Shown here piece after piece: positions 47,809-50,800 of a stretch of DNA of 64,000 nt (position 1 is the first letter of the stretch; the number at the start of each line of letters is the position of its first letter). The notes under the pieces were generated by a model. That model ran no database searches, was not told where the DNA came from, and was given only the letters and a program-made list of their open reading frames with translations. The translations under genes were made by a program, and so were the position numbers. Source of the DNA: Aplysia californica (taxonomy: Eukaryota); NCBI RefSeq assembly GCF_000002075.1, contig NW_004797367.1, forward strand, positions 803,278-867,277, in the 5' to 3' direction.

Positions 47809-50800
47809 ATTTTCACTGAAACAATTTTTTTAAAAACTAATTATAATGTAATCAGAAACAAAACAAAATGCAAAATCTTAGCAAATACTCACTTGTTTAT
47901 CAAACAAAACAGTTGCCGAGGTCTGGTAAGGCCATGATATATTTACAGACAGGCGATCAGAGAACATCCAATGATTCTGAGAGTCAATAGAGTAGAAACT
48001 TAATGACCTATTGCTGGAACAACCAATCTCCGAGAACTGTTTGGCTCCTGAAAAAGTCCCAGAAGTCCCAAGTTGGAATCCGCCACTTTGAACGGTCAAG
48101 TGGTCGACCAAACTTTGCTGCTTCTCCAGAATGAGACGTTCACACAAACGACGCGGAAGCCGTTCTAGATGGTCCCGTATATACCTGTCTGTCGGTCTAC
48201 GATTGGAGGACGGATCACCTTCATGGGAGGAAAAATGGGAAAACCCTGACTCTTGAAAACCGAAGGACGCTTTCGTCCCATCATCAGCAAGACGGTGGTG
48301 TCCTCTTGAAGGATTTTGACTGGTCCAGTCCGCGCGAGCGCGACAACATATACTGCACTTGTGAGACCACTCGTACGACAGGAGAACGTGCTGACAATCA
48401 GAAGGAAGACTGCAGTTGGCAAATGTGGACTGGAATGTCGGGAGCAGGCTGCACACCTTGTCGTCATGGCAACATACACTGCACACTCTGTTCCCACGCT
48501 GAAAACAGTTTCAAAATAAAAACGTTTTGTTTATGTAAGTAAAGACAAATTATATTAACCCCCAAAAAAATAGTCACTTAGAACAAGAATAAAGAAAGAC
48601 AGGCAAAAACGACAGAGGGAACGAAAAACAAAATAGGTAACCGTGTAATTATTCACAAAGGAGAGCAAAAAGTGTCAAAACAAAACCTACAAAAGAACCG
48701 GAGGCACTTTCCAACAACCTGCAGGAACTAACGTTAGACAACATCAACACTGTAATAAAAAGAAAGAACAAAACACACAAATCCTCCCTCAACAATAATC
48801 ACAAAATAAAAAGCATAAAATTTCGCCACAAAAATTGTCAGCAAAAGTCGGATTTTATGAATGCTAATTGCACTGTTCAATTTCCCATTTTTTTTAAAAC
48901 AGGCAACTGGTCCAGGCCAGGAAAGATATGCTGAGCTCTGTCGTCATTTTAAAAAATGCAGTACAGGCACTCTTAACAATTTTACAGGAGAACCAAAACG
49001 CTGCATGTTGTTACCATTAAAACACCATTTGCTTTAACGATAACATGGAAGTTATTAAAAAAACTGTATTCTTAAGAATATTGACTTGGAATGTTTGCAA
49101 AGAATTTGTTGGGTTTCTTTGATAACGATATTCAGATTTTTTGGCTTACTGTAAAATCGTAACCATTAAAAACTATGTGTTCGTCCAAAATTTGAATTCT
49201 AATTTATTCAAAAAGTAGTCATAGTTTCACTTTTATTTTTTCACACAAGTAGTGTAACTGATCAGGCTATCAATATGGCAAAAATTAAAAAATTGGCATC
49301 AAAAATGAAAAAACGGGTTTTGTCAGCGGACGGCAGCATTAGAGCTGGTTCGACTGCACTTCTCAGCCCCATCTCACCTTCAAAGACTGAGCGATGGCAG
49401 AGATGCAGCACTTGCTTGCCTGGCCGCGCGCCGCGTGGGTCCGGCGTAGCTTCTCACAGGTAGCCGCGACCTGTTGGTATCTGACAGCATCCTGTCTCAG
49501 CACGCGAGCCCAGGCGGAGTACATGGCGCTCCACCGCGGCCTCAGCATGCACTGGCGGAAGTGGAGGGCAACCGTCTTCAGCTGTTGGGGGGAGTACATA
49601 CAAACTATATCTTTACATTTGTTCACACATATAGCTATTGATGACAGTTTATACAAACTAATTAAATTTGTTCACAAACACAGGTGTTGGGGATAGTACA
49701 TACAAACTGTATATTTACATGTGTTGACAAATACAGCTGTTGATGGTAATACATGCAAACTTATATATTTAAATGTGTTCATAAAGAAAGCTGTTGGTAA
49801 TAATACATACAAACTATACATTCACATCTCTTCACAAATAAAACTGACGGCGATAGAACATAAAAACTTACATACAGTCGGGCACAGATAACTCAAACAC
49901 GGTTGGGACTAACGAATGCATTCCGACACCTTTATACTTCAGGTAAACTGATTATAACGGAAAAAAATAAAGAGATATCAGTTAGGGAGTAGCAAATTGT
50001 ACCAGCTATCCATCATTTTGAGTTTACCGTATTTGTGTTGTCCACGAACGACTATATTTACATTTGTTCACAAAAAAACCACAAAAAAACCCTTGTCTGT
50101 TCATCAGGGACACAGAAGTGGAAGGCCACTGCCTTTAGCGGTAGGTCGTAGTATATACAAATTATATATTTATATTTGTTCACAAAGAAACGGTCTTCAG
50201 CTGCTGATCAAGGATATCTATCACGAATCAAAGTCAATGGAGAAAAAGGTAGAATTTTCACAGGAACCACACAATGAATGAAGTGCAAATGGGAGGTGAA
50301 AGGGGCTAGAGAGTAAATGACACCCCAAGACAACTGTGGATGATTTAATAATCTTGCATTGCACATTGTAAAGCAGAAAATACATATTACTGATAGATTT
50401 CTGCTTTCAACTTCAAGGTAGAAAGTGTTAACTTGAATGCGCATTAAGGAAAGGAGGGGCCAACCTCAGACATACAAAGACAGAGAGGGAAAAACAAAAC
50501 AATAGAAACTGTCTATTATTTCCACAGAAGATTATCATTACTTGTACATACAGAATTATTTATTTACATTAGTTTACAAAAAAATATCATCTATTAATAA
50601 CTCATAAATCACATTTCTTTTACATTTTATGTTTGCCACTAGTTTCCTGAAAGCATACAAAAAAAGAGCTGAAAACAAACAGTATCTAATCAGCACACCT
50701 CATGTTTTGTTATTTCACTATTTTCTTTATAACGTTTTAAAGTCAGTTCACCCGCAACTTGTCATTTGACAATTTATGAATCAGTTATTATTGTTGTTCA

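What the first reader, a model, noticed from the sequence alone, without database searches (positions are those of the whole stretch)
49571..50210. Mirror case: tandem array built from a 3' splice acceptor in TXNDC11
Seen: a ~52 bp unit containing the exon 9 acceptor region (minus strand ...GTTTGTATGTACTCCCCCCAACAG|CTG) repeats at least six times into the intron. The most distal copy (50190-50206, ACGGTCTTCAGCTGCTG) also carries ~11 nt of exon sequence matching 49571-49587. The unit is unrelated in sequence to the tolloid array but has the same architecture in an independent gene. Inference: a recurrent genome-wide process that amplifies splice junctions into introns, while the exon-proximal copy remains the one in frame.
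Basis: partly seen in the sequence, partly recalled or inferred. Interest (0 to 1): 0.7.

Follow-up and report, generated by a model that had tools for sequence, protein, structure and literature searches.

The report
Decayed splice-acceptor "mirage" in sea hare
In a sea-hare TXNDC11 gene the last 50 bases of an intron and the start of the next exon were copied head-to-tail about seven times and are now decaying; this kind of repeat is already known from lancelets, chicken and humans, and the spare splice signals are likely harmless leftovers.

Summary
The array is real and is an old, acceptor-type "mirage", a known kind of repeat. TXNDC11 intron 8 ends in six 49-54-bp units (69-83% alike), the last being the true exon 9 acceptor. 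Further upstream lie a unit with a 19/24-nt exon echo, an 11/12-nt stub and a partial unit. No match to the unit was found elsewhere in the genome, and two other samples show the same array length. Five of seven copies keep AG; each would shift the frame and hit a stop. The two spliced contigs seen both use the exon-proximal AG. In my survey of 450 splice sites, local duplications spanned 16 of 228 donors (3.6 times the terminal-copy control, 95% range 1.8-7.4) and 6 of 222 acceptors (1.7 times, not significant). Against total intronic repeat cover there is no excess. So such arrays recur genome-wide, but a splice-targeted process is not shown, least of all for acceptors. The architecture is published for amphioxus (mirages), chicken (exon stuttering) and human F7. 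This scan has noted it on other DNA, including this genome.

The parts
49378..49581 (-). TXNDC11 coding exon 9 (204 nt, aa 336-403)
   Evidence: exact protein mapping; spliced contigs
49582..49634 (-). true acceptor unit (AG at 49583-49582), best acceptor score of the array (2.9, generic matrix)
49635..49683 (-). copy 1, 49 bp, ends TAG; use would add 53 nt, stop after 3 codons
49684..49736 (-). copy 2, AG lost (CAC)
49737..49790 (-). copy 3, CAG kept; would add 155 nt, stop after 24 codons
49791..49843 (-). copy 4, CAG kept; would add 209 nt, stop after 3 codons
49844..50079 (-). copy 5, CAG kept (262 nt, stop after 3 codons), split by the MITE; 54-bp spacing restored when the MITE is left out
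49875..50054 (.). 180-bp MITE, TA on both sides, decayed inverted ends (20 of 30 nt); dispersed family
   Evidence: 39 other places of 40 scored, 72-85% identity; one relative with perfect 18-nt inverted ends
50115..50190 (-). copy 6: intron part 37 of 46 nt alike plus 19 of 24 nt of exon 9; AG lost (CCG)
50189..50206 (-). copy 7 stub: CAG plus 11 of 12 nt of exon 9; would add 619 nt, stop after 6 codons
50544..50578 (-). detached partial unit (intron part only, no acceptor)
51186..51317 (-). TXNDC11 coding exon 8; intron 8 donor GT at 51185-51184
   Evidence: joint 49581-51186

Best explanation
This is a decayed tandem array copied from the TXNDC11 intron 8/exon 9 junction, likely born by ordinary local duplication and likely kept because the spare acceptors do no harm. 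Shown: the units, their exon echoes, single-locus origin, the MITE inside copy 5, and frameshift plus stop for every AG-bearing copy. Inferred steps: (1) a slippage or unequal-exchange event duplicated about 50 nt of intron plus 12-24 nt of exon; by geometry the downstream copy stays joined to the whole exon and the spare lands in the intron; (2) further rounds amplified a shorter 53-bp unit with only 3 exon bases; (3) a MITE inserted at a TA in copy 5; (4) the copies drifted to 69-83% identity and the array stopped changing length. The spliceosome likely picks the proximal AG because only it pairs with the exon 9 donor across a 204-nt exon and has the best pyrimidine tract; rare use of a copy would give a stop and likely mRNA decay.
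For: Array and copies. One match each in the 927-Mb genome for the array and for a 33-nt core with up to 3 mismatches. Pairwise identity 69-83% with no close pair. Same length, and no listed difference within 49579-49868, in a contig of sample S2 spanning the stretch and one of S5 spanning 49443-50371. Only the 49581-51186 joint in runs X10 and X18, two studies. AG kept in 5 of 7 copies, near the roughly 4 of 7 expected from drift (my estimate from the identities). No donor scoring above 2 within 300 nt after any of the 5 AG copies, so no pseudo-exon. RefSeq isoforms X1 and X2 are identical at this junction and the Plakobranchus protein aligns without a gap there. Same anatomy as amphioxus BflGb6.
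Against: The RNA evidence is two assembled contigs; contigs drop rare forms, so low-level use of the copies is not excluded. Donor-spanning duplications are 3.6-fold above the terminal-copy control and the excess does not fade among the most similar copies (ratios 2.0, 3.3, 4.4 from least to most similar; 8, 8, 6 events), which plain random birth does not predict. The true acceptor is weak on my generic matrix (2.9; median of called acceptors 5.5) and two intronic AGs outside the array score higher, so score alone does not explain the choice. The genome DNA search skips very common words.
Confidence: 0.8

Rival explanations
1. A mutational process favours exon edges: duplications are born more often at splice junctions than elsewhere in introns, for example through transcription- or splicing-linked breaks.
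For: Donors 16 of 228 versus 52 of 2656 control points, ratio 3.6 (bootstrap 1.8-7.4); still 3.2-3.9 in long introns. Excess present among the most similar copies. Seven arrays end within 30 nt upstream of an acceptor AG against 11 ends over 150-500 nt (post hoc).
Against: Acceptors 6 of 222 versus 41 of 2614, ratio 1.7 (0.5-5.0); 1.15 at 36 bits. Against total repeat cover (180 of 2656 and 139 of 2614 control points) junctions are not enriched. An exon-anchored copy is conserved and cannot be deleted, which raises both its lifetime and its measured identity. Splice sites were predicted, not annotated; five gene families only.
Confidence: 0.25
2. The copies are functional decoy or alternative acceptors that tune TXNDC11 output through unproductive splicing and NMD.
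For: Five copies keep AG and all five would give a premature stop.
Against: No joint to any copy in 3 runs with exon-covering contigs (X10, X15, X18); copies score -4.8 to 1.4; two lost AG; a MITE insertion was tolerated; all-out-of-frame has chance 0.13 for five copies.
Confidence: 0.04
3. The unit is a dispersed repeat or transposon-borne satellite that landed at the intron end and supplied the acceptor (intron sliding), or the array is an assembly artefact.
For: A real dispersed element lies inside the array; the orthologous intron could not be examined in another species.
Against: Two copies carry exon 9 coding sequence; no second locus; units are 69-83% alike and two other samples reproduce the array; no gap in the protein alignment at the junction.
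Confidence: 0.03

Closest known systems
Amphioxus 'mirage' minisatellites (Adh3, globins BflGb6/BflGb9, troponin C, PGBD5). Read: PMC3087553 passages and section 16; PMC3902484 one passage. The original Adh paper (PMC117041) was not held.
   Same: Tandem copies spanning an exon-intron boundary; BflGb6 is the acceptor type (3' end of intron plus 5' part of exon, 3-6 units); many but not all copies keep AG; normal splicing reported; unit size within the 10-160 bp range.
   Different: Gastropod host; units older (69-83% versus 81-100%); no length variation in the samples seen; split by a MITE; inner units carry only 3 exon bases.
Chicken 'exon stuttering' (PMC12954441; passages and part 2 of section 7 read)
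   Same: Local copies of an exon edge with its donor or acceptor in the adjacent intron; 3.4% of dot-chromosome introns, similar in size to 22 of 450 sites here (different method).
   Different: There concentrated on dot chromosomes and highly length-variable; here spread over many contigs and this array is frozen.
Human junction VNTRs: F7 IVS7 (37 bp), and CBS, 6-16, lamin B2, PDGF as cited there (PMC1557585; abstract and Introduction read)
   Same: First unit spans the exon-intron boundary; pseudo-sites mostly silent.
   Different: Those are donor arrays of near-identical, polymorphic units; here an acceptor array, where the spare sites come before the true one, so the 5'-to-3' first-come rule shown for F7 cannot explain the choice.

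Membership tests
mirage / exon-stuttering repeat | head-to-tail minisatellite-like copies | tested here: met
   TRF period 53, 5.5 copies, score 263; spacings 54, 53, 54, 53, 49
mirage / exon-stuttering repeat | unit spans a true exon-intron boundary, spare copies in the adjacent intron | tested here: met
   exon 9 starts at 49581; exon echoes of 3, 12 and 24 nt
mirage / exon-stuttering repeat | local origin, unit private to the locus | tested here: met
   1 match in G000 by DNA search and by 33-nt pattern with 3 mismatches; the DNA search skips very common words
mirage / exon-stuttering repeat | many but not all copies keep the splice dinucleotide | tested here: met
   5 of 7 keep AG
mirage / exon-stuttering repeat | normal splicing undisturbed | tested here: inconclusive
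   2 contigs show only the canonical joint; no raw reads on the exons, so rare use untested
active VNTR (F7 IVS7 type) | near-identical units with copy-number polymorphism | tested here: not met
   units 69-83% alike; same length in samples S2 and S5; few haplotypes seen
MITE (TA-target, Tc1/mariner-type label recalled, not from a call) | short, inverted ends, TA duplication, many dispersed copies | tested here: met
   180 bp, TA both sides, 20 of 30 nt inverted; 40 of 263 candidates scored, all matched; perfect 18-nt ends in L337
intron sliding / intron gain by duplication | shifted or new intron position against orthologues | tested here: inconclusive
   no gap in the protein at the junction against Plakobranchus; no orthologous genomic DNA available

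The most novel reading that the evidence does not exclude
Sea-hare introns gain tandem duplications preferentially at exon edges, with a donor-over-acceptor bias set by splicing: spare donors behind the true one are ignored, while spare acceptors in front of it are selected against unless they are weak or carry almost no exon, as here. About 7% of donors carrying such copies would make this genome a ready test bed for splice-site choice and duplication-driven intron gain.
Probability: 0.25. Interest if true: 0.5.

Novelty: new member of a known kind. Interest (0 to 1): 0.22.

Why it matters
The locus itself is ordinary duplication debris. The wider class matters modestly: it is proposed raw material for intron gain and a natural test of how the spliceosome picks among near-identical sites. 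The useful additions here are a rate for a gastropod genome (22 of 450 sampled splice sites) and a possible donor-acceptor asymmetry (16 of 228 versus 6 of 222, Fisher p 0.047, uncorrected), which an annotation-based count could settle in a day.

Tried and rejected
Raw poly(A) runs X21-X23 gave no depth on exons 8-10: no information on splicing. No RNA holder was listed on record. PF00069 loci (30) and the top 30 PF00067 loci were whole-domain, intron-free matches and were not used. My first long-intron filter wrongly removed junction arrays whose exon copies looked like neighbouring exons; fixed, whose figures are reported. A plain repeat-cover profile (76 acceptors and 83 donors) showed no peak at junctions. 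The idea that 50207-50543 is a second transposon splitting the distal unit found no support: one match, itself. Homologue search on aa 230-460 gave only Plakobranchus; no relative's genomic DNA was available, so array birth and intron sliding were not dated. A branch-point motif scan was uninformative. Literature searches for a published Aplysia or mollusc mirage found none; the abalone TSSK1 minisatellite (PMC6905558, 3 passages) is not described there as junction-spanning. Subscription journals and supplements were not seen.

Full report
Observation. Tandem Repeats Finder reports an array at 49579-49868 with period 53, 5.5 copies, 73% matches and score 263. An upstream exon matches a protein named Aplysia californica TXNDC11 isoform X2 at 100%. 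Exact mapping of that protein gives 15 coding exons on the minus strand, with exon 8 at 51317-51186, exon 9 at 49581-49378 and a 1604-nt intron 8. The array therefore ends exactly at the exon 9 acceptor. The unit is unrelated to the tolloid donor array (best E 0.054).

Anatomy. In transcript order the intron holds: a detached partial unit at 50578-50544 (0 of 500 shuffles and 0 of 118 window segments score as high); 337 nt with no other match in the genome; a stub with CAG and 12 exon bases; a unit with 37 of 46 intron bases and 19 of 24 exon bases but no AG; a short spacer; then five units of 49-54 bp with 3 exon bases each; then the true acceptor unit. The fifth upstream copy is split by a 180-bp element at 49875-50054 with TA on both sides and decayed inverted ends. 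Leaving it out restores the 54-bp spacing. The element is dispersed: all 40 scored places of 263 candidates matched, 39 of them elsewhere at 72-85%, and 1 of 4 relatives examined has perfect 18-nt inverted ends. It is a MITE that arrived after the array formed. The seven aligned units are 69-83% alike with no close pair, so the array is old.

Is the unit dispersed or an artefact? A DNA search with the array and a 33-nt pattern with up to 3 mismatches each found only this locus (the DNA search skips very common words). A contig from sample S2 spans 49330-51330 with 8 differing letters and no gap, and one from S5 spans 49443-50371 with one gap outside the array; none of the listed differences lies in 49579-49868. 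The array is real and was not length-variable in the samples seen.

Splicing. Five of seven copies keep AG. Using them would add 53, 155, 209, 262 or 619 nt, none a multiple of three, with stops after 3, 24, 3, 3 and 6 codons. On a generic matrix they score -4.8 to 1.4 against 2.9 for the true site. None has a donor scoring above 2 within 300 nt downstream. Of 8 runs laid, 2 gave a spliced joint for this intron (X18; X10), both 49581-51186; none showed a joint to a copy. These are contigs, which drop rare forms, and the 3 raw RNA runs did not cover the exons. Isoforms X1 and X2 are identical here, and the Plakobranchus protein aligns without a gap across the junction.

Genome-wide test. I collected exon-sized matches of myosin head, kinesin, SNF, tyrosine phosphatase and P450 families. 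Used: 108 of 114 locus rows (6 dropped as truncated, multi-exon or duplicate; 2 whole-domain phosphatase loci and the 60 kinase and P450 top loci never entered) and 231 further rows (42 of 42 myosin, 94 of 96 kinesin, 54 of 56 SNF, 41 of 63 P450), fetched. Splice sites were predicted near match ends: 490 passed the score cut and 450 had enough readable flank. An event is a non-microsatellite, same-strand match spanning the point, with a partner within 500 nt on the intron side and none on the exon side. Controls are intronic points 200-500 nt in, treated alike. At 30 bits: donors 16 of 228 against 52 of 2656 (ratio 3.6, bootstrap 1.8-7.4); acceptors 6 of 222 against 41 of 2614 (1.7, 0.5-5.0). 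At 36 and 50 bits donors stay at 3.4 and 3.2 while acceptors fall to 1.15 and 1.2. In introns over 1 kb: donors 3.2-3.9, acceptors 2.2-3.2 with ranges including 1. If the null is instead any repeat cover (180 of 2656 and 139 of 2614 points), there is no excess. I think the terminal-copy null is the fair one, because a junction can only lie in an end copy, but it ignores that an exon-anchored copy persists longer. The excess did not fade among the most similar copies (ratios 2.0, 3.3, 4.4; 8, 8, 6 events), a weak hint at raised birth, confounded by conserved exon bases. I looked at 8 of the 22 events by eye: L003, L200 and L291 are clear donor arrays, L106, L204, L241 and L250 clear acceptor duplications, and L168 a marginal single echo; L168 and L172 are paralogues and not independent. 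In the window itself the method flags 1 of 30 TXNDC11 exon ends and 1 of 24 rough tolloid ends, the two known arrays.

Mechanism. A tandem duplication across an acceptor always leaves the downstream copy joined to the whole exon and puts the spare in the intron, so no special machinery is needed for the shape. Slippage or unequal exchange then likely amplified a trimmed unit, a MITE inserted, and the copies decayed. The proximal AG is likely chosen by exon definition with the exon 9 donor (established knowledge, untested here). Whether births are also biased towards exon edges stays open: suggested for donors, not shown for acceptors.

Known systems. [quoted passage not shown] PMC3902484 (one passage) adds PGBD5 and troponin C. 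PMC12954441 (passages, part of section 7) reports exon stuttering in 190 of 5,572 chicken dot-chromosome introns. PMC1557585 (abstract, Introduction) covers human F7 and related donor VNTRs. The array meets the defining features of a mirage and fails those of an active VNTR. Searches found no published gastropod case in the held library. This scan has earlier notes on the class in this genome and in at least eight other windows; I did not test those.

Verdict. Real, correctly described, a new member of a known kind, and most likely inert. Interest 0.22.

Noticed in passing
window 196-888 (+): Tolloid donor array: six downstream copies of the donor region at 15-20 of 22 nt; flagged as a cluster running 16 nt into the exon.
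   Followed up: partly
window about 43255-43290 (-): 36-nt cassette exon of TXNDC11 that distinguishes RefSeq isoform X1 from X2 (12 aa after residue 738); absent from the Plakobranchus protein.
   Followed up: partly
window 49170-49290: High-copy dispersed repeat in intron 9 that attracts many partial poly(A) reads from other loci.
   Followed up: no
window 50970-51025: Very high-copy short repeat near the intron 8 donor (contig depth above 22,000 in X5).
   Followed up: no
L200 (G000:C57:129605 exon), L003 (G000:C479:18440 exon): Young donor arrays in myosin genes: 13 and 12 copies about 30 bp apart, most with donor scores equal or close to the true site; better test cases for splice-site choice than this locus.
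   Followed up: partly
L241 (G000:C123:659718 exon), L106 (G000:C1129): Single acceptor duplications with 25 and 61 exon bases; in L241 the upstream copy scores the same as the true acceptor (6.8).
   Followed up: partly
L312 (G000:C1064:19683 exon), L006: Arrays that stop 5-10 nt short of the acceptor AG; seven such ends lie within 30 nt of an acceptor, possibly the same class with the AG lost.
   Followed up: partly
G000 many contigs: Many intron-free whole-domain kinase and P450 matches, several in clusters on the same contig.
   Followed up: no
window 59727-60675 (-): Fragments of a LINE-like reverse transcriptase upstream of TXNDC11, read from the translation; label recalled, not searched.
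   Followed up: no
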